NCBI RefSeq assembly: GCF_004010195.1
Contig: NC_057716.1
Coordinates: 40,403,821 to 40,467,820 of the forward strand
Source: Chiloscyllium plagiosum
Lineage: Eukaryota
Direction: 5' to 3'
Length of the DNA stretch: 64,000 nt
Shown here: piece by piece, positions 3,013 through 58,270 of the stretch
Position numbering within the stretch: the stretch's first letter is position 1
How the letters are laid out: each line of letters begins with the position of its first letter
Made by a program: the position numbers and the translations under genes
Notes under the pieces: generated by a model
Seen by the model: the letters and a program-made list of their open reading frames with translations, nothing else
Database searches by the model: none
Told to the model about the DNA's origin: nothing

Positions 3013-3205
3013 GAGGAGAAAGTGAGGTCTGCAGGTGCTGGAGATCAGAGCTGGAAATGTGTTGCTGGAAAAGCGCAGGTCAGGCAGCATCCAGGGAACA
3101 GGAGAATCGACATTTCCTGAAGAAGGGCTTATGCCCGAAACGTCGATTCTCCTGTTCCCTGGATGCTGCCTGACCTGCTGCGCTTTTCTAGCAACACATT
3201 TCCAG
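3013..3205. mobile_element. Short fold-back Penelope-like (pLTR-only) insertion
   Basis: Arms of about 70-75 bp are near-perfect reverse complements; flanked by 15-bp direct repeat CTCATTAAGATGTTA (2998-3012, 3206-3220). Confidence 0.8.
3117..3144 (+). ncRNA. Minimal hammerhead ribozyme motif (PLE type)
   Basis: CTGAAGA-A-GGGC-TTAT-GCCC-GAAAC-GTC; stem I weak; antisense to host gene. Confidence 0.65.
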
Positions 3206-5195
3206 CTCATTAAGATGTTAACAAAACTCATAGTTGACAACTTGAAAATCTCCCATTTATTCTTGGCATAAATAAAGTTTATACAGATTTCTCAGTCTCA
3301 AGGCAAGCCATATGAAACAAAAGCTATTCCTTCTTTGATTGATGCACATTTCATATCAGTATTGTGGTGATCAATACTTCTTTTGATCCTAATATGTAAT
3401 CTATTTCCCATATTGCTTCTTGTACCAAGCAGCTTGGTATCTTCTCTTCTAGTTTAACATCCCCTCAGCGACTCCTAGCACTATCAAATCAAACAAAAAA
3501 TAGCAGATTAGATTACTTTCATTCCTGAGGAGGCTTATCTAAAACTTTTGCTCCTTCAGCAGGACACAGATGGATAAATCTTGCCTCCACATTCCATAAT
3601 TGATTTAGTCTTTCTCTTGGTGCTCCTCTGAACTTTAATTTCATAAATAATTTCATAATAAACTCTCATTTATTAGGAGGGACAGATTTAGATATGCTAT
3701 TCAACAGCTATCACGATTTTCTCTTTTTCCTTATGAAATTACTCCCTCCACTGAAACATACCTTGCCAGAATGAGAATCTTGCACATAAGGACTAGACAA
3801 TGTGCTCACAAGTTATTCTATCTTGTAGAGCATAACAGCCACGCTTGATTTATCTTCAGCTGACATCAACGCATGCACAGATTTAGTGGGTGACATTGAA
3901 AAATCATCGGAGGCAGTAATCCTAGATAAATTTCTTCTTCCTAACCTGAGGCACTAAGATTGATTGTAGCATGCTGCCAGAATCCTAATCAGACCCGCTA
4001 ATTTATAAAGGACAGAGAGTGAACTTGAGGCTTGTTTGGCTTAGCTATGCATCACTTTTATCAACTGGGTCATCCGAAGAAAGGCTAAACTTTGATACAA
4101 ATTAACTCTCAACTTTGCCAGAATTAACATCTGAGAAAGTAATAAAGGACAATTGCTATACAGTTGTTACATGTTTTTTGTGTTATGGAACCAAGAGAGA
4201 TGTCTATTCCTTCAAATAAAATAATTCATAAAACCACAAAGTAACAGTATCTTACAAAATTATTTACCATCATTTGAAAAGCTCTGATAGGTGCAAACTA
4301 ACTAGATTTTATCTTAATGGCAGCATATGTTGATTGCATTGTAAATTATTGTTATTTAACACGCTGCTATAAAGCAATTTATATTAATGTTACTTAGGAC
4401 ATGAGCAATTTTAAAATATTGTACCAAATAATCATGTTTTCTGATCAAAGTACAGAGAGGTGTTATCTGATTAGTTATGATCACACAGAATGGAAGGAAA
4501 TCTGTCAATTATCAACCAGGTTGCAAAATCAAAATCAACTCTATGCAGCTCCAAGTTTACTTTACCTCCATCAAAAAAAATATTGTGCTGTAACTTCTGG
4601 CCCCATCTGTTAGTTTCTACGCACCAAACAAGTCATTTTCAGCACATGCATAACAGCTCTTCTATCAATGATGCATCAGTAAATCTTGTACACTTTTACA
4701 AAGGGAACCAGCAACAATTACTTTGGAACCATTTGATGAACCTAATTAGAAAATGCCCAACATTCATTCTTTAACTGTTCATCAAGAAGAATTGGAATGC
4801 AAAGATTTATTCACAAAAAAGTGTGATTAGTAAGTACATGTGATGAACACTTTATTGTAATACAATATGTAAAAAAACCTAATCTAGAAAGTCTGTTTCT
4901 ACCCCAGTTTTACAATGTAAAACCTGTGCCTAAACATCCAATATGGCTGGTAACATACATTCACATTGGTAAAGGCTTTTGTATAGGGACCCAGAGCCGA
5001 AGGCTGTAACAGTCATTTTAATACTCGGCTTCTCCTGAAAATTAATTTGCAACTAACATCAGCATCCATGAATACTCTGTTATTACTGTCAGGTACTTGG
5101 CAGCCAAATCAGCCACCTTCAAAGAAAACCTGGAGGCTTCCTCCCAAAAGGCAAACTTGAAAGAAATATTAAATCAATGCCTCACTGCTGGTCAC

Positions 5196-5420
5196 TGTTG
5201 TGATTTGAATGAGATTAGCCAGGTGGATCTCAGATTAGGACCTCCCTGATTAGACCAGGTTAACAGTGCCAATCGGGGAGTCCTGGCTGATGGATATAAA
5301 CAGGAGAATCAGAGATTCTGGTCATTCACTTTGAGGGAGCTGGATCAGTGTCAAATACTCTCCAACTGTAATTCAAGGGTGACTTGGTGATGGCACATAG
5401 GCCTCTGTGAATTTATTCCA
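5196..5420 (+). mobile_element. Solo LTR, probably Gypsy-type
   Basis: TG...CA termini, 5-bp flanks GTCAC/GTTAC, internal CCAAT and TATAAA. Confidence 0.6.
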
Positions 5421-7009
5421 GTTACCACTTCCGATCAGCCCAGTTGCCTTGATGGATTTTACCTGCAACCTCAACTGATATCGGTGTTGGAAAATGTTAG
5501 TGCCTTTCAAGACTGTCAAATTTTGCAGGGTCTGGTAGCTGCAGCTCACTGATAATAAACAAATGAGGCCCAGCAAATCAACTTCCTGCAGTCCTGTCAC
5601 TGACCTCTTTAAATACAGGCCTTTTGCTCAACACCAATATCACAACCCAATTCAACTCAACTCCATTTTTGGACTCAAATATTTTGGTGGCAAATTCTAA
5701 CAACAAAAAACTTCACCAAAACTGAAAACCCCTTTAGTTTGAAACATAAAAACAAATTATCTGTTTTCACTGTAGCATCTGTCTATTATGAGACTTCATA
5801 AAAAGTGACTGCATGCTGAAAGTGCTGTGTATTACATATAAACATTGAGTAGGAAATAAGTATCTGACATGGGCTGATTCATGCTGTAAGCAATCTTGCA
5901 TGTGGTTGGCCTGACCTAATCTAAAGTCAACAGGGATGTGATGTGGAACTTGAGATGTACTTAGTACACAAAGAATGCACAATCAATAAAGCAAATAAAA
6001 GCTAACCAGTAATTGCAGGACAACAAGCAAACCCCAGATCTGAAAACATCACTTCCTTGACACTCAGTGATTATAAAGGCTATAGTGTACTTAGACACTT
6101 TTAGAGCTTCTTGTTAATATGTGATTTCCTGCTGTTTAAGTTTACTGACTGTTTAGAGATAAAGGAACTGCACCTTCAATCCTAGGCATGAAATCCCTTT
6201 TGAATGAGTGAAATTTCTGCTCATATAGACTTGAGCATCCCATTGTAAAATTTCTGCCAATGGCACATGAGCAATCTAAGCACAAACTATGCTCAAAACT
6301 TTTCTGCTCAAACTCATTTATATAATCATAAATATAAAAGTCTATCTTGAACCAGATTTTTCAGGACTTATTTTTCCCTTTTTGTTTGTTTTCTGCATTT
6401 AAACATATAAATACTTTTAAGCTTGATAACTGTTTTGTCAATGCAGATGAAATGTGCTTACCTCAAAAAAACATTTTTAACAAATATCTAATCTATCACT
6501 TGTTAATACAATAAAAATAACTAAAAAGTGAACCACAACAATATATTGGCTTCAATATAGAGTGTGTGGTCAGTTTTAGTAAATAAATACTTTGCTGATA
6601 TTCAAGAACTATTTAAAAAAGGTACACATTATTACTCTTGCAACTATAAATTAACCATGCTTTTAAGAACTTCCTCAGAGGCCCGATACAGTTTAATTCA
6701 TGCAAACTCAGTGTGCTGATTAATTGAATTTGTTTCTGTGGCCAGATTCCAGAGATATACTTCTTAAAACAAAGTAAAAGGTTGCAGAAAAGGTCAAAGT
6801 CAAGTTTTGCTTGATAATATCCAAGAAATGCCTTGTGACACTTGCCATTAAAGGAACCATATAAACACAAGTTGTTGTAAATCTTTTTCAATATTCACAG
6901 AAGAGATTGACTCAGTCATGAGCTGGACATATACAGGAAAGGGAAAAGGCCACTCAGTTCCTTCAGCCTACTTTGTCATTCAATTAGATCATGGTTGAAA
7001 GAGGGCCTT

Positions 7010-7218
7010 ATGGTGCACTGGTAGTATCACTAACTTTGGACCAAAAGCTCTGGATTAGAGTCCCACTTGCCCCTGAGATCGCTGTAACACTATATTCTGC
7101 ATTCTCTTCACTTACCCTGATATACGTGTGTAAGGTATGATTTGTCTGGTTAGCATGCAAAACAATACTTTTTGCTGTATTCCAGTACATGTGACAATAA
7201 TAAATAAAATCAAATCAT
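7010..7218 (+). mobile_element. SINE-like head plus Rex1/Babar-like 3' tail, within old CR1 3' remnant (about 6930-7560)
   Basis: Degenerate tRNA-like 5' part, then ...CTGTATTCCAGTACATGTGACAATAATAAATAAAATCAAATC tail. Confidence 0.4.
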
Positions 7219-8529
7219 AACATATCCAAGCACATTGATTGAAAAATTCTCAACTCTTTTAGTTTTCGTATGGAAGGGCAAAATGTGACAGCACAGGCTT
7301 GGAGTACAGACAGGCCAGTTCCTTTACCATATTGTTCTTTATTCTATTTACCTGCCTTCTCTCACCGTCCCTCAATGTATCTAGTTAATTAAGGTCTGTG
7401 GATCTCGGTCTTGAAAATTGCAATAACACCAACATTCACAGCATTTAAAGAGATTGAATTCTAGATTTCAAAACCCTATATGAAAAAGTATTCTGATTTC
7501 AGTTCTGTATGACCAAATTTTTATTTGAGGATTATGCCCCTTGTTATAGGTTCTATCACTAGAGGAATTAGGTCCTAAATTAAATTCACATTTTTAGGCA
7601 TAATTGACACAATCCAGCTTAATAATGGGTGATTATAGTGGCCTGACTGTCACCCAGTCAGTGCGAGAATCAGTGCAAAAAGGATTTTGTTAACTGATGA
7701 CTCCTAGTGGAAAATATACGTATGAGCATTGTGTGAGAGCAATGAGTTTGGCTGACACTGCTCGAGATAGAATAAGCCTTTGTTGAGATGTGCATATAAA
7801 TATGGTCTCATTACATGAGTTGCATGAGGAATTTCAGGGCCCCTTAGAAATACATTTCACCACTAATCAGGGGTTTGAGATACGGAGAGGAGACAGTTTG
7901 CAGATCAACAACTTTTAGTGAAATTAATAGAGACCATCATTGATGAGAAGGATATCGAACTAGGGAGAAGAATTGGCGGATATAGCATTCCTCTCTACCA
8001 ATACCCCACAATAGAAGTTTGGAGTCCAGCAGCTTAGATCACTTAACATTTCTTTGAGGAATTCAGGTAGCACAGGAATTGTCTATGTTGAAGATTAAGA
8101 AGTTGGAATTCCTTGCAAGTTTACAAATTGATATACACCAACTCTTCTCATATTGTGACAAAATCAGACATACAGTTGAAAATCCTTGCTACAAATATCA
8201 ACAAACAGTAAAAAACTTTTAAAAAGCAGTTTATTTCTGAAAACCTCTATTTTAAAACGACCGAAAGCACTTTTATACATTTCCCCCCAAGATTCAGTTA
8301 AAACAAGTTCAATGTTTGGAGGCAGGTGCAAATTGAATATTACATTTAAAATAGATTGCTCTCATAGTTTAAAAGTATTTTCAATATTTTAATCATTTCT
8401 ACATAAGCTATGCCTTTTCTCATAAATGGTAACTACTGTGCTGTGCAATTCTTTGTTTTCATCAAGTGGTGTCAGTATCCACAAGGCTATTGAGACTAAG
8501 GGAACATTCATTTGATCAAGGTTTGGTAA

Positions 8530-9305
8530 ACTTTGCAGCCTCCACCACCTCCTCTGGCAGCTCATTACACACACACACACACACACACCACCCTTTGTGA
8601 AAAATGTGTCCCTTAGATCTCCTATAATTTTTCCCCTCTCACCCTAAACTTATGCCCTCTGGTTCTGGACTTCACCACCCAGAGAAAATACCTTGTCTAT
8701 TTATCCTATCCATGCCCCTCATGATTTTATAAACTTCTTTAACGTCACCCCTCAGCCTCCGACACTCCAGGGAAAATAGCCCCAGCCTATTCAGCCTCTC
8801 CCTATAGCTCAAATCCTCCAACCCTGGCAACATCCTTGTAAATCTTTTCTGAACCTTTTAAGTTTCACAACATCCTTTCTATAGGAGGGTTGCACACAAC
8901 AATTCCAAAAGTGGCCTAACCAACATCCTGTACAGCCACATGACCTCCCCAACTCCTATACTCAATGCTCTGACCAATAAAGCAAAGCATACCAAACGCC
9001 TTCTTCACTATCCTATCTACCTGCGACTCAACTTTCAAGGAATATAAACATGCACTCCAAGGTCTCTTTGTTCACCAACACTCTCCAGGACCTCACCAAT
9101 AAATGTATAAGTCCAGCCCTGATTTGCCTTTTCAAAGTGCAGCACCTCACATTTATCTAAATTCAACTCCATCCGCCACTCCTTAGCCCATTGGCCCAAC
9201 TGATCAAGATCCCATTGTACTCTGGAGATATAGTGGACAGCAAAGAATGTTACCTCAATTTTGGTGCCATCTGCAAACTTACTAACTATATCTCCTATGT
9301 TCATA
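8530..9305 (-). mobile_element. CR1-clade LINE fragment (RT C-terminal part)
   Basis: Translation SKFADGTKI...DLDQLGQWAKEWRMELNLDKCEVLHF...RDLGVHV. Confidence 0.88.
8567..8590 (+). repeat. (CA)n microsatellite
   Basis: Direct reading. Confidence 0.9.
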
Positions 9306-9350
9306 GATATACAGAATTCCTGTGCAATTATCCCAGAAATAATTATTTGT

Positions 9351-9669
9351 GGGCGGCACGGTGGCACAGTGGTTAGCACTGCTGCCTCACAGCGCCAGAG
9401 ACCCAGGTTCAATTCCCGCCTCAGGCGACTGACTGTGTGGAGTTTGCACATTCTCCCCATGTCTGCGTGGGTTTCCTCCGGGTGCTCCGGTTTCCTCCCA
9501 CAGTCCAAAAATGTGCAGGTTAGGTGAATTGGCCATGCTAAATTGCCCGTAGTGTTAGGGGCAGGGGTAAATGTAGGAGAATGGGTCTGGGTGGGTTGCG
9601 CTTCGGCGGGTCGGTGTGGACTCGTTGGGCCGAAGGGTCTGTTTCCACACTGTGAGTAATCTAATCTAT
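9351..9669 (+). mobile_element. HE1-like tRNA-derived V-SINE, full length
   Basis: A box TGGCACAGTGG, B box GGTTCAATTCC, V-domain (GTGTGGAGTTTGCACATTCTCCCC...GGTTTCCTCC), CR1-like tail ending TAATCTAATCT. Confidence 0.9.
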
Positions 9670-10367
9670 CAAGTCAAAATGTAATCCTGAGCTAGAATTA
9701 CTTAAGAACTAGCTACTTTTCACTTAAAACTGTAAAATTATAGATGGCAGTGGCGGTTTGCAGATGGCGATTTGCTTTCATCATTTAAAATCCTTCTTAG
9801 CAAAGCAATAAGGAACTAATAGTTAATTTTTTTCTAAAAATTGGGAGTACCTAAATGGTAGAGGATTAATGACAAATGCTAATTTTAACTACTGTTTCAA
9901 TCAGTTTCTATTTGCAACTGATACTAATATGCATGAACCGCTTACACATTTAAACTTATTTTAAATTAAAGCTTTAAGTCAATATCTTCCCTCGAAAAAT
10001 CAGGATACACACATTGAAGCACAATCCTAAAATAAATGAGCGACAGCAAAGGGTCACTCAAACCCCACAAAGCTAACTGCTACTAGATGATGCAATGTTC
10101 TAGGGTAGGAAAACATCAACCTGCACAAGATTATTGGCAGATTACAGTAGATATAGAATTTCATGCCAATTATCAGATCATTTCTGAAAAGGTTTAAGCA
10201 ATTATATCACTAAACAAGAATACCTTTGTATTAATGTCAACAAATCTCAAGGTTACACAACATACTGAGAGGTGCTATCATTGCAGACAATGGCTAAAGT
10301 AATAATTCAATTTCTGGTATCAATTCTTTAATTTTTATCAAAGGTTCTTGTGAAGAAAAAGAACCAT

Positions 10368-11284
10368 TCAAAGTTTGTGAGAAGATTTGTAGCTCGGGTA
10401 CTCGTTGTTGTGGTTCTGTTCGCCGAGCTGGAAGTTTTTGTTGCAAACGTTTATGAACTATGAAAGCAACCACCCCAATACACACAAACGAAGTTGCATC
10501 AAGACACTATTCAAAAGGGCCACAACACACTGCAGCACACCAGAACTGCAAAAAGAGGAAGAGGAACACCTATACAAGGTATTCGCCAAAAACGGATATC
10601 CTCGCAATTTCATCAACAAATGCCTAAGGGAAAGACAATGGAACGAGGACATGCCGCAACCCAAAGGACTAGCCACACTACCATACATCAAGAACATCTC
10701 TGAAATGACAGCCAGACTACTGCGACCACTAGGACTTATAACAGCACACAAACCAACAGCCACACTCAGACAACAACTCACCGGAACGAAGGACCCGATA
10801 CCCAGCATGAGCAAAACTAACGTAATGTACAAAATCCCATGCAAGAACTGCTCAAAACACTATATAGGACAAACAGGAAGACAACTAACGATCCGCATCC
10901 ATGAACATCAACTACCCACGAAACGACACGACCAGCTATCCCTAGTAGCCACACACGCAGACGACAAGCAACATGAATTTGACTGGGACAACACTACCAT
11001 TATAGGGCAAGCCAAACAAAGAACAGCCAGAGAATTCCTAGAAGCATGGCACTCATCCACAAACTCCATCAACAAATACAACGACCTGGACCCAATATAC
11101 CAGCCACTTCAGCGGACAGCTGAAACTGACAACCGGAAGCGGCAGGGACAGGCCACTATAAATGCCGGAGGAAACACCACAGAAGCGCTTCACAGGAGGC
11201 TCCCAAGCACTGAGGATGTCACCTAGACAGGGGACGAAACGTTTGCCACAAAAACTTCCAGCTCGGCGAGCAGAACCACAACAA
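10368..11284 (+). mobile_element. Penelope-like element, 5'-truncated, with GIY-YIG endonuclease ORF and inverted pLTR
   Basis: ORF 10405..11226 contains HP..HKRS.IKTLFKRA, NGYP, VMYKIPCKNC..HYIGQTGR.L..RIHEH; 10405-10452 is the reverse complement of 11237-11284. Confidence 0.9.
11207..11246 (+). ncRNA. Minimal hammerhead ribozyme motif in PLE pLTR
   Basis: GCA-CTGAGGA-T-GTCACCT-AGAC-AGGGGAC-GAAAC-GTT-TGC (stem I GCA/TGC, stem II, palindromic AAACGTTT). Confidence 0.65.
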
Positions 11285-11499
11285 GGAAACATATTCATAC
11301 TTCCGGCTTCTAGCAGGAGTAAAACGTAGTGATAGTTAACGTAGTGCCAGACATCATTTATCAAAATCATGTGACTGCGATAAATGTGGAGATTTACTTT
11401 CTCACATTTATGCTGTTGACATCTAGCTTGACCTCATTAATACCCCTCAACTCCTTCCACTGGTGCTAAAATTATCAAGTTGCTTACCTAATATCAAGC

Positions 11500-12560
11500 A
11501 CTTGATGGGTAGCAATTTCTTCTAACTAAGTATTGGGAAGAGTAAAGCCTCACTGTTTAGTCACCTGTCCAAACTCTGTTCTCTATTTTAACCTCTGCGA
11601 AAATGCCCAACTTCGCCCACACCCAGCTTACCTCCTTCAGAAACCCTCATCCATCCATCAACACCTCTAGATTCAACTAACCTAACGCACTCTTGGGCTG
11701 TAGGTTCCATTCTATCCTTGGTGAGCTTGAGGCCATCCAATATTCTCTTTCCAGTGCCTTCATCTCTAGCAGGCTTATTCCTCATTCATCACTGTGCTTG
11801 TTGACCACCATTTGCACACATTTAAGCTGCATCTTAGAATCATAGAATCTCTACAGTGTGGAAACAGGCCATTCAGGCCAACAATTCTACACTGATCCTC
11901 CAACGAGTTTCCTATCCAAACCTATTCCCCTGCCCTACATTTTACATTTTCCGCTGACTAATGTACCTAACTAATGCACCTCTGAACACTATGGGCAATT
12001 TAGCATGGCCAATTCACCTAACCTGCACATTTTTCAACTGTGGGAGGAAACTGGAACACCCAGAAAAAATCCAGCAGACAGGGGAGAATGTGCAAGCTCC
12101 ACACAGACAGTTGCCAGAGGCTGGAATTGAACCTGGGACCCTGGTGCTGTGAGGCAGCAGTGCTCGCCACTGAGCCACCCATCTTGATTTGAGCATTTTC
12201 CTCGTCAATTGCAAGTCCCGCCATGATTGCACCCATCCCTCTTTCTGCAATCTCTTCCAGTCCACAAACCTGCCCAACATCCAGGATCTTCTAATTCTGA
12301 CCTCTTGCCTATCCCCAATTTGCTTTGGTTCACCAGTTCCTCAGTTCCCTAGAGCTCACACTCTGGAGCTCTACACCAAAGCAGACCAACACCCAGCTCA
12401 TTCTTCGCTTTGAAACCACACCTTAAAACCTACCTTTCTGCCAATCTTTTTGTCACCTAACATAATATCTCCTGATAGGCTTGGTCCCATACCTGATAAT
12501 GCTCCCTGTGCTAGACCTTGCAAAATCTTGAAATATTAAAAACGAGCTAGGTAAACAGAA
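11500..12560 (+). mobile_element. Degenerate L2-like LINE 3' region interrupted by HE1 SINE
   Basis: L2-type text such as CCATCAACACCTCTAGATTCAACTA and CCTTAAAACCTACCTTT. Confidence 0.55.
11836..12180 (-). mobile_element. HE1-like V-SINE
   Basis: Reverse complement of the 9351 copy, more diverged. Confidence 0.88.
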
Positions 12561-12625
12561 GAGGTGATAATGTACCAGCAGCATTGTATTAGAAAGCTAA
12601 GGCGTTATACTTATTTAGTGTAAGC

Positions 12626-12876
12626 TTTCTCTTTCTGTATCTAACTTGGTATTGAATTTACCAGCACTAACTGACACTTCTTTCCACTCCTTATATTGGT
12701 ACTTCCCTCATTTTGATTGATTTAGCAAATTGCTTGCATTATTCAATCCAGTCACAGGTGCCTTGTTGCCCTCACAGATATCAACACGCGCTTTCAGCAA
12801 CAAAATATTGATGGAACCAAATGTTCTATTTCCCGACAGTTAAGCTTCAGATTCCTGTTGAATGCCAACAAGTACC
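12626..12876 (+). repeat. Local direct repeat, copy 1 (about 250 bp)
   Basis: Highly similar to 13632-13890. Confidence 0.92.
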
Positions 12877-13189
12877 TTGGATTACCAACTGAGATAGTGC
12901 TGTAACCAAATGGATCATAACTTGCTCCTAAATTTAAAGTGTACCAATTACTCACCATTAATTATGCTCAAATGATGCAACAATTCCAGGTGAGGGGATG
13001 ATATATAGTTAAACTCAGAAATCCAAAGCTCTTTGTGACATGAGTTGTTTCCATCAGTTTCACAAAAAATAGCATCTTGTTGCATTGTGCAACATTGAAG
13101 TCTACTGGGTGCTGTGACACTACTGTATATGTGTGGTCAAACTCACCAGAAAAAATGAAGTCTTGTCCCTTTCAGTCCAAGTATATTAT

Positions 13190-13212
13190 TAGTAGTAGTA
13201 GTAGTAGTAGTA
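13190..13212 (+). repeat. (TAG)n microsatellite followed by (AAC)n
   Basis: Direct reading; adjoins L2-like 3' end. Confidence 0.85.
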
Positions 13213-13229
13213 AAAGTAACAACAACAAC

Positions 13230-13585
13230 AACCTACAGACACTTGTAACTTAATATGAGACCACAAGACATTTCACAGGAGCATTATAAAGCAAAGTTTG
13301 ATACTAAGCCATGTAAAGTGACATTAGGTCAGATCACCAACAGCTTGGCCGAAGGGATCAGTGCTAAGGAGTTTTTTTATAAGAGGAAAGTGAGATAGAC
13401 AGGCTTAGGGAGGAAATTTCAAAGCCTACAGCTGAAGGCATAGCCACCAATGGTGGAGGAATGAAAAATGGGGATGTCCAATAGGCCTGAATTAGAGGGA
13501 TCCATCTCTTGGAGGCTTGCAAAGCTGGAGAAGATTTAGAGAGAGGGGGAAAGAAAAGGCATAGAGGCATCTGAAAATAAGAAAA
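13230..13585 (-). mobile_element. L2-like LINE 3' fragment
   Basis: Similar to 28880-29360, 20680-20980 and 41900-42080/46400-46560. Confidence 0.55.
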
Positions 13586-13631
13586 AAAAAGTCTGAACCA
13601 TTCCTTTCTGCTTTTTATTCCTCTCTCTTCA

Positions 13632-47094: not shown

Positions 47095-47107
47095 CTTTGA
47101 AGGTTTA

Positions 47108-47650: not shown

Positions 47651-48162
47651 GACCGCTCTCTCCAGGTGGAAATACTTTTCCATTTCCTTCATCAAATACT
47701 GTATTTCATTAGGTCACTCATCATTTTTGAGAGAGAGAAAAGCCTGAGTAAATACTTTTTATACCTTCTCCATTGTCTTTTTTTATATAGCATTTAACAT
47801 AACACTTTTGCTTTTTGACTTTAATGTTAAGAATCCCAATAACTTTATTTAATTACACAAGTTGCTACATTTCATGATTTTTTTTTGCAGTTGTATTCTT
47901 TTTTCTCAGACCCCCATTTTGTTAGTTCCTCCCCAAGTCTTCTTTTTGTGATAAGTGAAATATATCCTCTCATTCCCAAAGTTTATTTTCTTATATTTTA
48001 TCTCATCATCTTTGGTATGAATGACATTCCACCTAATTTGGTGTCTTTCACAAATTTTGAAACTGTATTTCTGATTCCAGAGTTTATTATCACTATTAGA
48101 CTTCATAAGGTGAGAGTGTTTTAAACTTCAATTTACATTAAGCAAAATGCCTTGGAACGGGG

Positions 48163-48253
48163 ATTAGATTAGATTACATTACATTACAGTGTGGAAACAG
48201 GCCCTTCAGCCCAACAAGTCCACACCGACCCGCCAAAGCGTAACCCACCCATA
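48163..48253 (-). mobile_element. HE1 SINE 3' tail fragment
   Basis: Nearly identical to 44693-44784. Confidence 0.8.
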
Positions 48254-50455
48254 ATGACGCGAGTGATGTGATATACGAATTCTACCAGTAATAGACCCAT
48301 TCAATTCAATTGACAAGGGGACAGGAGACCATGGTCAACTGGAGCGATAGCAGATATGAGCTTTAGCACTTTCAAAGGAAGCAGATCTTATCTGATTCAG
48401 ACTCCCAGAGCCAGTGAGACCAACAGACTTAGGGGAAATAGACCACTATAGATACTGCAATGCCAGTCCAAATAAATGGCTGTTTTTTTTGCGATAACCA
48501 CCAATTAAATGCTGGTAAGGATGAAATCCATGTTCAAGGAAATCAGTGTTGTGCATTTTACAAGCCTACTTAATTATGTTTAAAGAGTTGAGTGAAAAGG
48601 GTGGTTATTTTAAAAGAATACTGGAATATACACCTTGGCAAAGCAGGGAGAAGGATCCTATTAATATTGGGAAGAATTGGACTTTACGTTAAAGCTGCAC
48701 ATATACAAAGAGTGAGTCGAACATACCAATACTACATACCAATAAAATGGGCAGGGATGGGGGGGGGGGTGAACAGATTTTTTGTAGTTTAGTGTATTAT
48801 TTTCCTATTAAGTAACATATAGTTAACATGGATCGTGGCATGCTTATTTTGATAATATTCTTTTTGTGTAGGTCACTTGGATATATGTAACTGTTTTAAA
48901 AGTTATTGGTCTCTAAGGAGATTCTAATTGTAAATTGTGTATGTAAATTGTTACCAACAGCCCTAGTACCAATCCTAGTGGATCCTCTCTTCCATCCTGC
49001 TACCAATTTGAGGAGCCATCCACAATCCATACTCGATGTCATCTGCTACTTATCCCCTGACTTCACATGCCCCGATCTTAGTTGCGCATCTTCCATCAGC
49101 ACCTTATCAAAGGCCTTTTGGAAATCCAGACTTACAATGTGTGCCACATCACTCTTATGAATCCTTTCTGTTACTTCTTTTTAAAAGGAAAATCTAAAAT
49201 ATTGATTATTCCTTTTAGAATCAATGATGACCATTAGTCGTGTTTCCTGTTTCTTGATCGTGTTCTACTGCATATTTGATTAAGATATCATTTCTTTCCT
49301 ACCACTGACACTGAATTATTTGGTCTCCAAATTGCTCAATTTGTTCCATGTGCTTTTTAAACACAGGAGCCACATAAGCAGTCTGCCACTTCTTGAGCAC
49401 TATTCCCTTCCTGCTGGTAATATGAGTGATTCCAATTGTTGAACGTTTGCAGAAACTCCTATCCACAGTATACCCACAGTGTTTATTCCTCATCTGGCAG
49501 ACCAAACACTATATTATATTCGGACAGTCATGATTGACTTAGCTGGTCACGTAACCAGAATGCCTCTGTGAATTTTGTATGGAGGACTTGACTCTCCAAT
49601 ACACTACTATGGCAGATATATAAAGCAATACGAGGATATTGTGACGGTTTCACTTAGGTGTTTTGGTATTGACCTTGTGGTCCACTATAAGCTCATGAAT
49701 AATCTGCATTTGGTGCAATCAAGTAAAAACAGCATCTCAGAGCCATACTACATGGAAACAGACCCTTTGATCCAACTCATCCATGCCAACCAAGTTTCCC
49801 AAACTAAATTTGTGACAAAGCAAACATCAGAGACAGAAAAAAAAAACACAAGGAGAGGAAATTCTCAGCCAGTGTCCAGATATCAGTCTCCAAAGTGTCC
49901 TGTCCAGCATACAGTAGAACATTCCAAAGCCCATTGGCCTTCACAGTCACTGGTGCACCCATTGGTATACCAGCAGACACTGCAAATGAAGAAGATGGTC
50001 ATCCTCACCCTGAAAGATGAACTAGATCAAACAGTAAGCAGCTGTTTTATCACAACCAGGGACAAGGGTCTAACTCGCATTGAATTGTATCAAAGAAACT
50101 GTACCTAGATGACTAGCTAATCAAAAAGCTAATTATGGAATATTTCTAATAATCTATTCTAAGAATATATGCATAATCCCTAGTTGCCCCAAGTTGGTAG
50201 AATTTGATGGTTTTCTGGGCTATTTCAAAGGGAGGTTAAAGATGCTCCATGTTGGAATGGGACTAAATACCTTTGTCAAAGAGATCTGTGCACACATACA
50301 ACAAATGCAGGTAATTCCAGATAAATAGTTGTAGGATTTTTAAAAAAGTTTATGCTCAGTCTACATAAAAAAAACAACCTGTTTAATCATGAACCATTAT
50401 TCGTTCATGACCGACTACATAAATCTTATGTACCCTTTGGAACAGAAATTCTTAC

Positions 50456-50645
50456 CTTCAGTTGATGGCCCAGACAGTGCTAGATTTGCGGATCTGTTTT
50501 CTTCTGATAGCACAGTAGACTCTGCAACACACCCATTTTCTGTTTCAGAGACTTGCCAAGAGTCTCTGCTTCTTGCCCAAGCTTTCCTTTTATCCTTTGC
50601 ATTTCTCCAGCTATGTGCACGGCCAGATAAAACTGCCTCATCCAT
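50456..50645 (-). CDS. ITPRID2: Coding exon 1 (MDEAVLSGRAHSWRNAKDKRKAWARSRDSWQVSETE...PSTE), ends phase 1
   Basis: ATG at 50645, donor GAAG|GTAAG after 50456; upstream acceptor TTGCAG|G at 50683 implies a spliced 5' UTR. Confidence 0.88.
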
Positions 50646-51813
50646 AGTTACAATTACACTTTTAATTCAATGAAGAAGTCAACCTGCAAGTCCAGGACAA
50701 AGGATAACAATTAATATGCCAGATCATCAGAAAAACAGAGTTTCAACCTTTCCAGTTATCTAAGCTAAGTGATAAGTGAAGGCTTGCCAGTAGCACAAAT
50801 GTCCCACTGCTGCGATTCCATATAACATGCCAACTCACCAGCTTACGGACAAATAGTTGTTTTTTGTTACAAAACTCGTACTATTGCCAAAAAGAAATAC
50901 ATTTTCTGAAAGCTTTTCACATCATAACATGAAGTTGCCGGTGTTAGACTTGGTGGACAAAGTTAAAAATCACACAACACCAGGTTATCATCCAACAGGT
51001 TTATTTGGGTTTACAAGATTTCGGAGTGCTGTTGTCAAGTAATCAATGGGGTAGGATCATAGGACACAAAATTTAAAGTAAAACACCAAAACGTCATACA
51101 AATGATGCAATGTATTGAATAAACCTAGATTGCTGTTAAGTCTTTAATCATTTAGAATGAGTTGTAGGTTTCAACTCATTAATATGTAAATCGCATAACT
51201 TATTTCAAGGCACATTCGAGATAACTTAATGTTTCATAAAAACAAAGGTGACATCTCAGCTCAGACAATGCATTAAAAGTGTGAGGTCAGAGTCCGTCTG
51301 TATCCCAACCTTGGGTCAGATTGGTTCTATTTCCAAAGTAGGAATTTATAAAATGTCACATGCACTGACTGCCTATAGATTGTGCACTTTTTGAACAAAA
51401 TAGAATGCATCTGCAAATGCAAATTCACCCCATAAACTTATGTGTGTATGTCGGGGGGTGGGAGAGGGGAAGAAGAGACACAGAGAGAGAGACAGACAGA
51501 CAGAGACAGAGAGAAAGAGAGAGATGTGGGGGGAGGGGGGGAGAGATGGTTTGCTTGACAGAGTGCATATGCAAGTGTGACAGAGTCTTTGTAAGTGTGT
51601 GTATGTGTGCGAGTGCGAGTGCGAGTGCGCGTGCGCGAGTGTGTGTGTGAGAGAGAGTGTGTAAGAGTGAGAGAGTCAGTCTGGGGGGACGGAACACTTC
51701 AGCGGTCAAGGACATTCGGCCTCGGATCTTCAGGTGACCATTTTCCAAGGTGGACTTCAGGATATGCAACAATGCAGAGTGGCTGAGCAGAGGCTGATAG
51801 CCAAATTCAGTAC

Positions 51814-52039: not shown

Positions 52040-52689
52040 GATGGCCTTAACCGGGACTTTGGGTTCACGTCACACTACAGATGATCCCACCACACATTAC
52101 TCTCGCTCACACACACACAGCACATATGATCACATTCACACAGACCCTCTCTCATTCACATACACACCTTCTCAAAGGCATATACTCTGTCACACTCGCG
52201 CACACACTATCAAGCATACACACACTCTCACTCTCCCTCTCTCTCACACACACTCACCCCATAGACGTAAATGTAAATGTGCCTTTTCAGATTTGGACTT
52301 GTAGGTACATTCTATTAGTTCACAATCTCGAGGTAGTCAGTCCATGAGACATTTTATCAATCCCACTTAGAAAACAGAATAAAATCTGACGTAATGTTGC
52401 AATACAGACAGATTCTAACCTCACATCATAACTCATCTCTAACCTAACCTCACAAATGAATTGTTGGAGCTGAGATGTCACCTTTATTTTTTAAATAAAA
52501 CCTTAAGTTATCGCGGGAATATGACTTGAAAGTAGTTCTGAGATTTACATGTTAACAAGTCAAAACCTGTAGCCTCATTCTAAGTCACTAAAGACTTAAC
52601 AGCAACCTAGGTTTATTCAATTGCATCAGTTATATGACGCTTTGATATCTTACTATAAAGTCTGCGTCTTCTGATCCTGCCCCACTAGT

Positions 52690-52724
52690 TACCTGAAGAA
52701 GGAGCAGTGCTCTGAAAGCTTGTA
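52690..52724 (+). ncRNA. Minimal hammerhead ribozyme motif
   Basis: TAC-CTGAAGA-A-GGAGC-AGT-GCTCT-GAAAGCTT-GTA. Confidence 0.62.
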
Positions 52725-52992
52725 CTTCCAAATAAACCTACTGAACTATAACCTGGTGTTGTGTGATTTTTAAACTTTCACGTCATAAGCATCATGACAA
52801 TTCACAAGAATACCAATGTTTGGGAAAAACAACATTTATACCATAAAAGAGGAGAGTGATGATTTGTTGGCAAGTGGACTCTGATTGGTGGAGGTGCTGT
52901 CATGTGGAATGTATCAGTTATTGATGATTGAAAGTTATCGGTCAGGCTTTCTTTAAATTTTAATCATAGGCATGTTGACTCTGATTGGTCAA

Positions 52993-54585
52993 AGTTAAAA
53001 ATCACACAACACCAGGTTATAGTCCAACAGGCTTAATTGGAAGCACTAGCTTTCAGAGTGGTGCTCCTTCAACAGAGGGTTGTGGAGTACACAATTATAA
53101 GACACAGAATTTAGAGAAAAAGCTGACAGTGTGATATAACTGAAATTATACTTTGAAAAATACCTTGATTGTTTGCTAAGTCTCTCAACTGTTAGAATGG
53201 CCATGTTAGTTTCACTTCTTTCATATGTAAATCACAAAACTGTTTTAAATGTTACATTCTCAGGTTAACTTTAACAATTGGTGTCAGCCCAGATAATATG
53301 TTGAAGGTGTTAGCCCCTTGTGTTTCCTATCTGTGCCATAATGTTTAGACTGATTCTAATCTAAAAAGTGACTTTACAGAGTCTTACATGGATTCATGCA
53401 GTTTTTGAGCAAAGTACAATGTAACTCTGCAAGTACAAATTCACCCCACAAACATGTGTGTGCGCGTGTGTGTGTCTGTGAATGGGGTGGGGTGTTGTGA
53501 GTGTCTGTGTGTGACATAAACCCAAGGTCCCGGTTGAGGCCCTCCCTATGGGTACCAAACATAGCTATCAGCCTCTGCTCAGCCAGTTTTTGCTGCTGCC
53601 TGTCCTGAAGTCTGCCTTGGAGGATGGTCACATGTCAGAGTGTGGACATGGATACCACCATTACGTGTGGGAACACCTCCAACCATGTACGTGGCAGGTA
53701 TTCATGCGACTCAGCCAACGTTTCTATCTCATACACTGCAGGCAAAGATGCCGAGACATGGTACATTGGTGAAACCGAATAGAAGTTACCGCAAATGAAT
53801 GGGCACCGCACAACAATCAACAGGCAGGAGTGTTCCCTCACAGTTGGAGAGCACTTTAGCAGCCCAGGAATTCGACCTCGGACCTTCGGGTGACCATCCT
53901 CCAAGGCGGACTTCGGGATTGGCAGCAGCGAAAAGTGGCTGAGCAGAGGCTAATAGCTATGTTCTGTACCCATAGGAAGGATCGCAACCCAGACCTTGGG
54001 TTCATGTCACATTACAGGTGACCACCATTGCTCTATATACACACACACACACACACTTACATCCCTTTAAACAGACACATGCACACACGCACGCATATAC
54101 GTTTGTGGGGTGAATTTGTGCTTGCAGAGTTACATGGTACTTTGCTCAAAAACTGCATGAATCCATGTAAGACTCTGATTCTTAGATAAAAAATGAGTTA
54201 ACAATCTAAACTTTATGGCATAGATAACAGCATACAGGGGGCTAACACCTTCAACACATTATCTGGGCTGACACCAATTGTTAAAGTTAACCTGAGAATG
54301 TAACTTTTAAAACAGTTTTGTGATTTACATATGAAAAAAGTGAAACTAACATGGTCATTCTAACAGATAAGAGACCTAACAATCAAGGTATTTTTCAAAG
54401 TATAATTTCAGTTACATCAAACTAAACTTTTGCTCTTAATTCTGTGTCTTACAATTGTGTACTCCACAACCACCTGGTGAAGGAACAGCGCTCTGAAAGC
54501 TAGTGCTTCCAATTAAACCTGTTGGACATAACTTGGTGTTGTGTGATTTTTAATTTTGTACACCCCAGTCCAACACCTCCAGATC
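52993..54585. mobile_element. Large inverted-structure Penelope-like insertion
   Basis: Arms about 52993-53630 and 53890-54558 are reverse complements; loop carries decayed GIY-YIG (WYIGET, VGEHF); 12-bp TSD CTGATTGGTCAA (52981-52992, 54586-54597). Confidence 0.88.
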
Positions 54586-55949
54586 CTGATTGGTCAAGGC
54601 AGTGTCCTGAGAAATGAACTAGAGAGTGGCTGCTACCTATTTTGGTAAGTTTGAATAACAATACTCAGCAGTAAACAAGTTTCAGGTTGGATAAATTTGA
54701 CTGCAGATAAAGATCTCATATTCTGTTCTATTCCAGATCTTGAACAGATAATATAATTGCACAGGGGTCTAACAAGGTTAATAAATGATTGCATGCTGGA
54801 AGCGCCAATTACTGTGAGGGTGTCTTTGGACTGAGTCAGAGTAAAGAAGAAACCTGTAGGAGACAGACCTAGGGCTATGGTGGTCCTAACAAACTCCATA
54901 GTAATGTATGTCACGTTCGCGCAATCTGGAATTAACTGTAGTGAGGCAATAAACATCCAATTGTTTATTCAACCAGATACTTCCAGTTAAACCTGAAAAG
55001 TTGGATAGCCAGTCTAGGCCACATCAGCATTAAAGGAACCCATGTACAAAACATATGGTAAAATGATTGGCCCCTGCCACAACAAAGCTGTCGATCACAG
55101 CATACTCTTTCTGCCAACTAAGTGAAATTAGAATTTGCACTTTCTATAAAATCCCCAGACAGAAAAGAAAACATGTTTATGACTCAAAAGACAAAGTCAA
55201 CAGATACTAATTGCTGATGACAGAGAATTGCACAACATTCAACACAGAAGAATGATTTAGGAGATGCCACGGAAAGCAGTTCAGACCAAAAAGAAGGCAT
55301 ACAAGAACAGAAAGAACTCTGCAGCAGGCGTACAGTCTACATCACGACACAATGCTCTGTGGAACAGTCCTGAGTCACAGCTGAGTCAATGAGGCAACCA
55401 TACATGAAGAATTGTATGAGTCAAAACTAAAACTTCTTGTACCAAACGGAAAACCTCAAATGCTCAGTAACTTGGGTATCATGAGTGGATACCATGAGAC
55501 ACGGCTGGAAAACATTTCAAAGCCACGAGCAAAAACTGCTACACTCTGGGAGCAAAGAGCTGGGGAAGTAACTAACCAAACTAACTCAAAACAAGCAAGC
55601 ATTGAGCAATGCAACGTAGTATGCAATTCTGACCTTACACAGAAATATTTTCAGGGGTCGATAACTCAACTGTAGTCATGGTGAGGCTCTAAAATGCAGG
55701 AAAACCTCTGTCACACCTGAAAAGCATAGAAAGATGTCTAAGTTGGACAAGAAACTCTACAGTACAGCAGCTAAGCATGGGAGAACTGCTATTACTGCAG
55801 AATAAAAGTCTTTAAAATGAAAAAAATACCTAAGCGCATTAGGAAGTAATGACATCAGAAATAGCTTTCCCAGGAAGATTTCGTTTCAGATGAGCCAAAT
55901 AGAACACAAAATTGGACAATCTGAAGATGATGATTCTTGAAGTACTGAG

Positions 55950-58270
55950 TAGCTTCTAAACAGTGAATGAAGAAAGAAATTAAACATACAAATATTCTTC
56001 TATACACATCTGAGAGAGTAGCAGATGATTTTATTACTCAAAGGGTAGATGAAACATTGGTTGCACTTGTGAAGCTGCTTTGCTCTAGACCGTTGGCAAG
56101 GAGAGCAATATCTGGTATCTGTCCTACCCACCTTGCTAGTCTTTTATGCTTAGTCTATATGACATTGAAGAGGTATTGAAAACCTTTGGCGATTATTTCA
56201 AGGCCAGAACTATAAAAATCTCGAAAGGGCAAGACTCAACAAAACGATGAAATATCCAGATTAATGCATGAATAATTTCATTTATTCCCTTTACAGACAA
56301 ACGGAGAAATGTCATTATGGTGATGTAATGCCAGATTCATAAGGGATTGGATTGCGTAGGCAATTCTGGTGAGCCTTTGGCTTTCTCTAATGGATTTGAC
56401 AATCAGAAGGTGAGCGAAGCAAAGGAAGCTGGAAGCAAAACAGATCAACCCTAAGGAGAAGATAATACCTGGCACAGAAGGTCGACAAAATCTATTCATT
56501 TTGTCACAGACTAGATTGGGTTGGGGTATCTGGTCAGCATGGAAGAGTTGGACTGAAGGGTGTTTCTGTGCTGTCCATCACTATAACTCTTTGATTCTTT
56601 ATACAAAGCATAAAAGACTAACAAGGTGGGTAGTGCAGAGGTTGACATTTTGGGTGTAACTCTTCTACAGGACTGGGGGGGGTGGGGGGAGCTGCAGATA
56701 AAGAGGGAGGCAGGGGCAGGATGAAGTGGGGACACCTCTGTCTCATCGGGAAGAACTGTTTGGATGAGCATGAAAGGGTTGGTGTACCAGCAGCATGCAG
56801 ACAGAGATTTACCTGTCTCTCTTCCAACCTAGTTTACTGCATCAGGTGCTCCCAATGTGGTCTTCTCTACATCTGGGAGACTGAACGTAAACATAGGGAG
56901 CACCGAGCATCTCAGCCAGGTCCACACAGGCCAACCAGACCTCCCAGTCACCACCCATTTTAATTCCCCCAAACACTCCCTTTCCAACATGACCATCCTT
57001 GGTCTCCTCCATTGTCAAAACAAACCACAGCTCCTATTGAAGGAACAACACCTTATCTTCCACCTGGGCACCCTACAGCCCTGAGGACTCAACATTGAGA
57101 TCTCCAATTTCAAATAACCTCCTTCCCCATCCACCAACTTCCTTCCCAGCCCCTCCCCCCTCCTTTCCACATCTCCCTCCACCAACCGGATTCATTCCTT
57201 CCATTGATCAACCAGGTCATACTTGTCTTCACCTGTCCCCACTTCACCACCCTGCCTTCGCCTCCTTCTTTATCTGCAGCTCCCCCCACACCCACCCCCA
57301 GTCCTGAAGAAGGGTTACACCTGAAATGTTGACTTCTGCACCTCCTGATGCTGCCTGGCTTGCTATGTTCTTCTAGCCTCCTGCCCGTCTACTTTGGATT
57401 CCAGCATCTGCAGATTTTTTGTCCTTAACAAGGTGGGTAGGACAGACACCAGACACACTCTGTCCCTGTCAATGGTCTGCAGCAAAGCAGCCTCACAGGT
57501 ACAAGCAATGCCCAGCTTTTAAAACAAAATAATTGTATTGTAAATAGTCATTTGTTAGTACAGAACTTCAGTATTGTTCACAACAGGTGCATTTTGTCAA
57601 GCTTTTTGTCTTGCATTCGTCTGGACATTTCCCAAGAATATAAATTCAAGAGGAAAACAAATATTTATACAGCGCAAGTGGAGAGTACTGATGGGTCAGC
57701 AAGTATACTCTGCTTTTATTATAAGAAACAAGGGCACTTCATGTAAATGCACCAAAACACGACATAACAGAGTGGACTCGATGGGCCGAATGGCCTTACT
57801 TCCACTCCTAAGTCTTATAACCACAGAAAAATGGAAAGACTAAAGAACATATCACACAAACAGATAATTGAGAGAGAACCATCTCCAGTAGAAGATAAAT
57901 CTCAAACATTCCTTGGAGAAATCAGACACCTAGACCAAATATCTCATTATGGAAACATTCACATCAATAGGTATCACATAAATTTCAAGTTAGCTACAGG
58001 AGCAAGTGTTACAGTATTGCCAGGGAGAGCGCTGTAGTTAACAACATACTGCTTACACTGAGCAGCTGTTTGGCAACACAGTCCAGGGCCTTCATACTTA
58101 AACGTTAAAGGTATGTTGTAAGCAACTCTCCAATATCAAATACCTTATGTACTTCACAAACAAGAGTTCTCTCTCCCGGTAAGGCATATATTTTGGCCTC
58201 AAACCCATTCAAGAGGTGGAAGAGGTTAAACAACAAAAGGTCAAGGAAAAGCTGGCATCGAATTTTCCTG
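55950..58270 (+). mobile_element. Decayed Gypsy-like gag-protease remnant, interrupted by CR1 tail and PLE
   Basis: INFKLATGASVTVLP near 57980 resembles retropepsin FKLDTGA; gag-like residues near 56200-56480. Confidence 0.45.
56634..57425 (+). mobile_element. Penelope-like element 3' part with inverted 5' pLTR piece; hammerhead-like motif at 57300-57334
   Basis: FTCLSSNLVYCIRCSQCGLLYI.ET...PVTTHFN..LIFHLGTLQP; 15-bp TSD TAACAAGGTGGGTAG (56619-56633, 57426-57440). Confidence 0.88.

What the first reader, a model, noticed from the sequence alone, without database searches (positions are those of the whole stretch)
3117..57334. About a dozen Penelope-borne minimal hammerhead motifs of three sequence types inside one gene
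Seen: CTGANGA-stem II-GAAA-NNUH cores at 3117(+), 11210(+), 43731(-), 43777(+), 45887(-), 52693(+) and 57304(+), with decayed copies at 20341, 24974(-), 37513, about 46985(-), 53047(-), 54474 and about 56645(-). Stem II differs among families while pairing is kept (GGGC/GCCC, GGAGC/GCTCT, GTCACCT/AGGGGAC, AGTC/GACT), and stem I covaries too (ATTC/GAAT, AGTC/GACT, TAC/GTA, GCA/TGC, CAC/GTG). Stem III is reduced to a short palindrome (ACGT or AGCT). Established: Penelope-like elements carry minimal type I hammerheads that work best as dimers. Inference: this genome holds a very large, structurally diverse ribozyme population.
Basis: partly seen in the sequence, partly recalled or inferred. Interest (0 to 1): 0.7.

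Follow-up and report, generated by a model that had tools for sequence, protein, structure and literature searches.

The report
Hammerhead-headed Penelope stubs in shark introns
These are real copies of a known small self-cutting RNA motif carried by end-pieces of Penelope-type jumping genes, about 200,000 of which litter this shark-type genome; in most families many copies stop just in front of the motif and not at its cut site, likely because the element's RNA starts there and is copied uncut.

Summary
Confirmed. Seven intact and seven decayed minimal type I hammerhead cores lie at the stated places (0 in 20 shuffles). They come from 11 Penelope-like (PLE) insertions of five lineages, not three, in and upstream of a shark ITPRID2 gene. 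The kind is published (Cervera & de la Peña 2014).

The window is ordinary for this genome: a generic core pattern hits 205,555 times (control 237). Stems covary between lineages, but copies decay like neutral DNA, and most here are mutated, antisense or locked in hairpins, so an active ribozyme population is not shown.

The useful result lies outside the finding. Copy 5' ends pile up 4-8 nt in front of the core (40 of 100 and 29 of 60 tail-anchored copies, about 8-fold; none of 30 in the Poseidon-type family). That point is an initiator-like A about 30 nt below a TATA-like box. There is no excess at the cut site. Best reading: stubs are run-off cDNAs of the uncut RNA's 5' end. This scan noted the same pile-up earlier on other DNA.

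The parts
3014..3208 (.). Family A1 head-to-head stub: core-less arm 3014-3116(-) plus arm 3114-3208(+) with intact core (C3 3117, predicted cut after 3144); 15-bp target-site duplication 2998-3012 / 3206-3220
   Evidence: local fold pairs the core region with the inverted arm
10368..11287 (+). Poseidon-type (family C) 3' remnant: GIY-YIG frame about 10500-11226, intact core C3 11210 with an ATG inside the motif; core-less inverted arm 10368-10452(-)
20161..20461 (+). Family B remnant, core at 20341 with G8 and G12 mutated
24922..25005 (-). Family E-like stub, C3 25001, G12 mutated, shortened stem II
37115..37598 (+). Family B remnant, core at 37513 with G12 mutated; endonuclease C-terminus traces upstream near 36830-36960
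43671..43900 (.). Family A1 head-to-head stub, two intact cores (C3 43758- and 43777+), both arms starting at -7; 14-bp target-site duplication; folds as one long hairpin
   Evidence: (-179.7 kcal/mol, z -23)
45789..46390 (-). Family A1b (Neptune-type) 3' remnant: GIY-YIG end 46390-46133, TTATCT box 30 nt above the initiator-like A at -4, intact core C3 45914 with perfect 4-bp stems I and II; sense to the host gene
46924..47092 (.). Older family A head-to-head stub; arm 46924-47008(-) starts at +1 (C3 lost); tail-only arm 47013-47092(+)
50930..51425 (-).
52333..52778 (+). Family B remnant with intact core C3 52693 (G-U at 10.1-11.1), TATAAA upstream
52990..54585 (.). Family B head-to-head insertion, cores 53075(-) and 54474(+), both with A6 mutated; broken GIY-YIG end near 53500-53950; 12-bp target-site duplication
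56590..57420 (.). Family D head-to-head pair (outer limits approximate): decayed core about 56670(-); broken GIY-YIG end 56793-57150(+) followed by intact core C3 57304 (ATGT, G-U at 10.1-11.1)
1..50645 (-). Host gene ITPRID2 (SSFA2/KRAP): coding exons at about 50645-50457, 40165-40115, 33196-33119, 32892-32824, 24668-24405, 22927-22691, 20008-19223, 16656-16564, 2753-2646 and 733 onward past the window edge
   Evidence: PF14722; homologues; tblastn exon map

Best explanation
The motifs are minimal type I hammerheads in the terminal repeats of Penelope-like retrotransposon remnants, and in the Neptune-type families many copies begin 4-8 bases in front of the core, likely because the element's RNA starts there and reverse transcriptase runs off the 5' end of that uncut RNA. 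Steps. (1) Shown: motif, PLE context, copy number, position of 5' ends, lack of excess at the cut site, a TATAAA or TTATCT box 30-32 nt above the peak. (2) Inferred: that box and the initiator-like A form the pLTR core promoter, so the hammerhead is the first 32-37 nt of the transcript and stem I starts at or near +1. (3) Inferred from Anolis Poseidon biochemistry (PMC11167929): the endonuclease nicks both target strands and reverse transcription starts inside the RNA about 90-130 nt downstream; run-off gives a stub of about 100-135 bp, and two such cDNAs joined at their 5' ends give the head-to-head pairs inside one target-site duplication. (4) Inferred: the ribozyme is selected only in the active master elements, where it would cut as a dimer or with help from the element's protein. 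The inserted copies are mostly dead, promoterless passengers of host introns.
For: Tail-anchored samples, chosen without regard to the ribozyme: family A 40 of 100 junctions at -8..+5, rate ratio 8.1, p 7e-18, mode -4/-5; family B 29 of 60 at -12..+5, ratio 7.6, p 3e-12, mode -8. The peak windows were set after seeing the first 70 and 50 copies, so these p values are optimistic; the later copies gave 11 of 30 and 5 of 10. Genome-wide nested counts for one subfamily: 9,656 copies reach -4, 4,635 (48%) reach -14, 4,211 (91% of those) reach -24. Of 58 short A1b-type copies that hold -4, 56 end within 3 nt of it. Family E, fetched afterwards: by eye about 25 of 30 copies start near -4/-5; family D about 9 of 30. 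Box 30-32 nt above the peak base: A1 16 of 16 boxed copies, A1b 23 of 26, A2 17 of 17, B 30 of 33, D 15 of 19. Cut site +-3: A 6 observed vs 3.9-4.7 expected, B 0 vs 2.4-2.9, C 1 vs 0.6-1.1. RNA reads: 78 reads leave the reference at exactly -4, both strands about equally, 95% running into unrelated flanks. Neutral-like decay at CpG sites. In Anolis Poseidon, reverse transcription starts internally, uncut RNA is the main substrate and the ribozyme cuts only with protein.
Against: No direct transcription-start data: the one informative raw-read run showed no place where many molecules begin or end. TTATCT is not a canonical TATA box. Family E's box rests on 3 copies at -25, -25 and -29. An untemplated G from cap copying was not established: 13 of 32 G, at least one of them target-derived. 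The Poseidon-type family C, the clade on which the biochemistry rests, shows no pile-up (0 of 30 at -8..+5) although it has TATAAA upstream. In A, D and E the peak also coincides with the 5' end of stem I. Samples come from the start of one contig. A cut-and-religated circle would also leave no excess at the cut site. D. virilis Penelope has a TATA-less internal promoter with an intron before the ribozyme, so the layout is not universal.
Confidence: 0.65

Rival explanations
1. One reading: the genomic copies are a large working population of ribozymes that cut host pre-mRNAs as cis or trans dimers through the shared ACGU/AGCU palindrome.
For: 57 of 66 family-A copies that span the core keep it intact; copies are present in RNA reads; 45914 is sense to ITPRID2 and its minimum-energy fold shows stems I and II; tandem same-strand units exist elsewhere in the genome.
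Against: CpG decay is equal in catalytic and non-catalytic positions (6 of 66, 8 of 66, 15 of 132). Monomers are inactive and dimers weak in vitro. The Anolis motif needs protein. Only 1 of 9 Xenopus dimers cut. No pile of read ends at the cut site, though in a library not built for that. Hairpin sequestration at 43758/43777 and 3117.
Confidence: 0.08
2. The pile-up is structural: reverse transcriptase or the repair step disengages at the 5' end of the folded ribozyme on a longer template.
For: In A, D and E the peak base is the first base of stem I.
Against: A folded barrier should stop copying at its 3' side, where the rate is background; stem I is already unpaired when its 5' strand is reached (inference); in B the mode is -8 while the contiguous stem I is 3 bp; family C has the same fold and no peak; it does not explain the fixed 30-32 nt spacing to the upstream box.
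Confidence: 0.12
3. The pile-up reflects sequence-directed joining or cutting at ATT (endonuclease preference or microhomology with A/T-rich targets).
For: The Anolis enzyme prefers 5'-ATT-3'; family A starts with ATT and several target-site duplications overlap it.
Against: Peaks at the equivalent place in B (ACA), D and E (AGT), which lack ATT; other ATT sites in the element show no peak in the sample.
Confidence: 0.07
4. The stubs are an independent SINE- or retrozyme-like family made from a short separate transcript or a cut-and-ligated circle.
For: Very high copy number; recurring internally deleted tandem units of 210-320 nt with shared junctions exist for A1b, like the PLE-derived retrozymes of the 2026 preprint.
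Against: Stubs match the ends of long copies of the same subfamily; junctions and spacers differ from copy to copy; stubs lack the upstream box; the pattern that finds the tandem units has only 354 hits against 9,656 for the subfamily; none is in this window.
Confidence: 0.08

Closest known systems
min-HHR of metazoan Penelope-like elements (Cervera & de la Peña 2014, PMC4209133; seen: parts 1-2 of 4, abstract through discussion)
   Same: Type I core, helix III reduced to a palindromic 15.2-16.2 pair, extra base between 9 and 10.1, G10.1-C11.1, short helix I, several consensus families per genome with covariation, mostly single truncated copies, some close opposite-strand pairs.
   Different: Counts there are about 4,000 (coelacanth) and 9,000 (Xenopus) against 205,555 here, with different search methods. 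No shark in the text I read (supplements not read). Helix II is only 4-5 bp in most lineages here. The paper proposes cut-and-circularise; it gives no map of 5' junctions.
Poseidon of Anolis carolinensis, PAc (Frangieh et al. 2024, PMC11167929; seen: parts 1-2 of 4, the main text)
   Same: Family C has the start codon inside the hammerhead and an AC-rich 3' end about 110 nt downstream; two classes of 3' end ('tail') are seen in family A; uncut RNA as template fits the lack of cut-site junctions.
   Different: The paper does not map transcription start or genomic 5' junctions; the pile-up here is in Neptune-type lineages and absent from the Poseidon-type family; in A1b the first ATG of the body lies at +162, below the ribozyme.
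EN+ PLE insertion units, Neptune and Penelope/Poseidon clades (Craig et al. 2021, PMC8557442; Arkhipova et al. 2013, PMC3846280; passages seen)
   Same: Heavy 5' truncation, adjacent inverted copy, 30-40 bp optional tail, target-site duplications; a putative TATA plus Inr in a rotifer pLTR; Zn-finger-like linker in Neptune (present in A and D).
   Different: Those papers explain head-to-head palindromes by self-priming on an antisense template and call HHR function unknown; a sharp truncation peak at an Inr-like base just before the ribozyme is not in the passages I saw.
Non-LTR retrozymes derived from PLE pLTRs (Li, Clavereau, Pollet 2026, 10.64898/2026.07.22.740005; seen: abstract, Results part 1 of 2, passages; supplements closed)
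   Same: Tandem hammerhead units derived from pLTRs, also in one cartilaginous fish; matches the 210-320 nt tandem units.
   Different: The window's copies are single or head-to-head, not direct tandems; the preprint counts only tandem arrays (maximum 14,255).

Membership tests
PLE minimal type I hammerhead (min-HHR) | Core C3-U4-G5-A6-N7-G8-A9, G12-A13-A14-A15.1, U16.1-H17 | tested here: met
   7 of 14 sites intact, 0 in 20 shuffles; the other 7 carry 1-2 core changes or lack C3
PLE minimal type I hammerhead (min-HHR) | Helix III reduced to a palindrome (ACGU or AGCU) | tested here: met
   9 of 10 family majorities Watson-Crick at 15.2-16.2 (C-G 7, G-C 2); family D majority is U-G
PLE minimal type I hammerhead (min-HHR) | One unpaired base between A9 and G10.1; G10.1-C11.1 pair | tested here: met
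   extra base in 7 of 7 intact cores; G-C in 5 of 7, G-U in 2
PLE minimal type I hammerhead (min-HHR) | Helices I and II kept by compensatory change between families | tested here: met
   five lineages: stem I 18 of 20 vs mean 9.0 (1 of 120 permutations), stem II 18 of 20 vs 11.0 (2 of 120). Stem II was part of the family patterns, stem I was not; A, D and E are related
PLE minimal type I hammerhead (min-HHR) | Self-cleavage after H17, as a dimer or with protein | not testable with these tools
   no assay possible; no read-end peak in one unsuitable library
Rfam hammerhead families | Match to a curated covariance model | tested here: not met
   no hammerhead family among 14 hits at E up to 10
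EN+ Penelope-like element | C-terminal GIY-YIG endonuclease directly upstream of the pLTR | tested here: met
   tblastn with the 902-aa RT+GIY-YIG protein P0127: 46390-46139 (E 4e-22), 56793-57105 (2e-14), 10819-11094 (1e-7); family B frames by translation. No Pfam hit on the fragments themselves. Not shown for lineage E
EN+ Penelope-like element | Inverted 5'-truncated partner, optional tail, target-site duplication | tested here: met
   duplications of 15, 14 and 12 bp around three composites, 8 bp near a fourth, none found at 4 of 8 tested; inverted partner in 30 of 100 A and 23 of 60 B copies, 0 of 30 C by a strict pattern
EN+ Penelope-like element | Intact RT-EN reading frame between two pLTRs | tested here: inconclusive
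   none in the window; no full-length copy among 30 pLTR-body junction loci, only internally deleted units; RT-containing relatives exist in protein databases
Neptune clade | CX2-5CxxC linker between RT and endonuclease | tested here: met
   present upstream of family A and D loci; absent from the family C frame, which fits Poseidon; not reached for B or E; no tree built
Non-LTR retrozyme | Direct tandem units each with a type I hammerhead, no ORF | tested here: not met
   no direct tandem in the window; met by derived units elsewhere in the genome

The most novel reading that the evidence does not exclude
PLE transposition begins with a strong-stop-like cDNA. The transcript opens with the hammerhead at +1, reverse transcription starts 90-130 nt downstream on uncut RNA and runs off the cap, and long copies need a jump to the 3' pLTR or a read-through template. 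The ribozyme is then a switch that removes the capped leader (and in Poseidon the start codon) and takes that RNA out of the translated and copied pool, not a unit-length processor. The roughly 200,000 shark stubs are the fossil record of this step.
Probability: 0.3. Interest if true: 0.7.

Novelty: new member of a known kind. Interest (0 to 1): 0.42.

Why it matters
As stated, the finding is a known feature of Penelope-like elements in a new genome, with a count 20-50 times above the published vertebrate figures I read (methods differ). What could matter is the junction map. The role of the PLE hammerhead is called unclear in Craig et al. 2021. A genome with 200,000 insertions records which RNA ends were copied, and it points to the uncut 5' end of the transcript, not the cut site. 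That names exact bases to test by CAGE and in vitro, and it links the Anolis biochemistry to genome structure. It does not indicate a function for the host gene.

Tried and rejected
Rfam scan at E up to 10: no hammerhead hit, only hairpin look-alikes. Pfam on the endonuclease fragments: nothing. Single-sequence folding of 7 motifs: no stability signal except 3117's alternative hairpin (z -2.7; others -0.4 to +0.7), as expected for such short stems. Splice acceptor as cause of the peak: rejected, since A and B have no AG at the peak and short copies share no upstream exon sequence. Cap-derived G: 13 of 32, inconclusive. Second peak at the cut site: not seen after enlarging the sample; a weak one in family A cannot be excluded (6 vs 3.9-4.7). 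Full-length element: not found among 30 junction loci. Sequencing runs: no RNA holder listed on record; run X21 gave no laid reads, X1 gave one contig in the first lay, and X1 and X14 gave none in the second. Orientation bias in introns: too few copies (intact cores between coding exons: 2 sense, 3 antisense; 12 plus and 9 minus in 264 kb). Upstream exon of ITPRID2: not located; nearest CpG island about 152 kb above the ATG exon. Lünse et al. 2017 was not held; I know it only from its citation in PMC6765202. Some background junctions (B at -154, C at -236) probably mark the end of my references; they raise the background and so lower the ratios.


Full report
Observation. All 14 sites are in the sequence. 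A hammerhead descriptor (CUGANGA, optional extra base, stem II of 3 or more pairs, GAAA-NN-UH, stem I of 2 or more pairs) returns 7 intact motifs and none in 20 shuffles. The other seven carry changes at A6, G8 or G12 or have lost C3. Every intact motif has one extra base between A9 and G10.1. Rfam has no hammerhead model that matches.

Setting. The host gene is ITPRID2 on the minus strand (PF14722; best named hit zebra shark at 82%), so the genome is a carpet-shark type (inference from named homologues). Nine motifs lie between coding exons and five above the ATG exon at 50645. One contig suggests a further spliced exon upstream; I did not find it. The 14 motifs belong to 11 insertions of five lineages. 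A, B, C and D have GIY-YIG remnants directly upstream. A and D carry the Neptune linker, C lacks it and has its ATG inside the motif like Anolis Poseidon; B and E were not classified by linker. Three composites are head-to-head pairs inside one 12-15 bp target-site duplication.

Copy number. Exact pattern counts in the 3.56-Gb genome: generic core 205,555 (reversed control 237); family A core 76,851 and tail 203,805; B core 21,164 and tail 34,326; C tail 6,179; D 941 and E 2,618. The generic pattern does not test pairing. Two 100-kb tiles gave 4 and 5 intact motifs. The window has 6 generic-pattern cores against about 3.7 expected, so it is ordinary. Published counts are about 4,000 and 9,000 for coelacanth and Xenopus, by another method. 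PLE expansion in whale shark introns is already reported.

Covariation and decay. Across five lineage majorities, stem I keeps 18 of 20 Watson-Crick pairs (permutation mean 9.0, reached by 1 of 120) and stem II 18 of 20 (mean 11.0, 2 of 120). Stem II was partly fixed by my patterns and three lineages are related, so this is support, not proof. The common A1 and A2 subfamilies have a U-U mismatch in stem I. Within family A, 57 of 66 core-spanning copies are intact (one more could not be aligned without gaps). CpG sites are hit at 9-12% in core, stem II and stem III alike; non-CpG sites at 0.8% (core) and 1.7% (stem II). This fits selection on master elements and drift after insertion.

Activity in this gene. 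Of the 7 intact motifs, 2 are sense to ITPRID2. 43758 lies in a hairpin of -179.7 kcal/mol. 45914 folds into stems I and II alone but has a 139-nt, 87% complementary copy 1.9 kb away. In published tests such monomers do not cut and dimers cut weakly, the Anolis motif cuts only with protein, and 1 of 9 Xenopus dimers cut. Cleavage of the host transcript is unlikely (inference).

Where copies begin. I sampled copies by a tail pattern downstream of the ribozyme and aligned them upstream to long references: the first 100 listed plus-strand A hits, 60 of the first 100 B hits (all of the first 30, then plus-strand ones) and the first 30 C hits, all from one contig. Junctions pile up at -8..+5 in A (40 of 100; ratio 8.1) and -12..+5 in B (29 of 60; ratio 7.6), with modes -4/-5 and -8. 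C shows none (0 of 30). The windows were drawn after the first batch; the second batch gave 11 of 30 and 5 of 10. Genome-wide nested counts confirm it for A1b: 48% of copies pass -5..-14, 91% pass -15..-24. Of 58 short copies holding -4, 32 end there and 56 within 3 nt; 34 long copies were set aside. D and E, fetched later by core pattern, show the same edge by eye (about 9 and 25 of 30). In raw RNA reads, 78 leave the reference at -4, with both strands alike, as expected for passengers in host transcripts. The cut site shows no excess: A 6 vs 3.9-4.7, B 0 vs 2.4-2.9, C 1 vs 0.6-1.1.

What marks that point. In long copies a TTATCT (A1, A1b, A2, D) or TATAAA (B) box lies 30-32 nt above the peak base, which is an A after pyrimidines. 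That is the spacing of a TATA-initiator core promoter (own knowledge; the initiator consensus is recalled). E has only 3 boxed copies (-25, -25, -29). A putative TATA plus Inr was described in a rotifer pLTR, whereas D. virilis Penelope has a TATA-less internal promoter and an intron. No read-start peak was seen, and cap-derived G is inconclusive.

Mechanism. Most likely (0.65) the element's RNA starts 4-8 nt before C3. The element's protein nicks both target strands and starts reverse transcription inside the RNA, as shown for Anolis Poseidon; A1b 3' ends fall near +90 and +125-130, above the first ATG of the body at +162. Run-off at the 5' end gives a stub; two stubs joined give the palindromes. 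The template is uncut, or cut and religated. Rivals: structural stop (0.12), working host-level ribozymes (0.08), independent SINE or retrozyme (0.08), ATT-directed joining (0.07). The main result against my reading is that family C, the clade with the biochemistry, has no peak.

Known and new. The motif, its PLE link, its abundance and its families are in Cervera & de la Peña 2014; inverted truncated units are in Craig 2021 and Arkhipova 2013; tandem derivatives like those are in a 2026 preprint. Eight library searches showed no paper on shark PLE hammerhead counts or on a truncation peak at the ribozyme's front. The library lacks most subscription journals, Lünse et al. 2017 was not held, and I read no supplements; those of the 2014 paper and the preprint may list shark motifs. 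Eight earlier unreviewed notes of this scan report the same pile-up on other DNA; my reading was noted before that look-up. One note reports a second peak at the cut site in another genome, which I did not see here.

Verdict. Real, correctly named, known in kind, ordinary for this genome. The junction map adds a testable clue about how PLEs use their RNA. Interest 0.42.

Noticed in passing
L281-L310 (e.g. L295, L296, L302, L306: 320-nt unit; L283-L285, L305: 224-nt unit); G000:C8:24157651-24158527: Internally deleted A1b units (ribozyme, tail, first part of the ORF, jump to the 3' UTR) recur at different loci with the same junction and form short direct tandems, up to five listed in a row: retrozyme-like non-autonomous derivatives and the best natural dimer substrates.
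   Followed up: partly
window 11216-11218 (+): In family C the extra base between A9 and G10.1 is U and completes an ATG, upstream of the cut site, as reported for Anolis Poseidon; cutting would remove the start codon.
   Followed up: partly
L394, L404, L432: Three separate head-to-head insertions have both arms starting at the -4 A with a single G-C pair between them; either a template base or a cap-derived G.
   Followed up: partly
window about 45835 (-) and about 52730 (+): AATAAA (A1b) or AATAAA/ATTAAA (B) lies in the tail below the ribozyme, a possible polyadenylation signal in the pLTR; absent from A1.
   Followed up: no
window 9359-9668, 11842-12179, 14274-14596, 44704-45010, 48175-48254, 51814-52027, 60630-60821: Another abundant short repeat family of about 300 nt in both orientations, probably a shark SINE (label recalled, not tested).
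   Followed up: no
window 18311-18724, 29793-30239, 45034-45439, 47320-47688: Frames that look like CR1-type LINE fragments (recalled resemblance; the two scanned had no Pfam hit).
   Followed up: no
window 12626-12722 and 13632-13728: A 97-nt direct repeat, 94% identical, 1,006 nt apart; possibly a local duplication.
   Followed up: no
window 62743-62773: A tail fragment related to families A, D and E with no core found by the scans.
   Followed up: no
L065, L147, L220, L290, L318: Further hammerhead variants with other stems (ATCT/AGYT stem I; CCA/TGG stem I with a GTTACCT stem II), so the genome has at least seven lineages.
   Followed up: partly
L330, about G000:C7:40606300: The only CpG island in 264 kb, about 152 kb above the ITPRID2 ATG exon; could be its promoter or that of a neighbour.
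   Followed up: no
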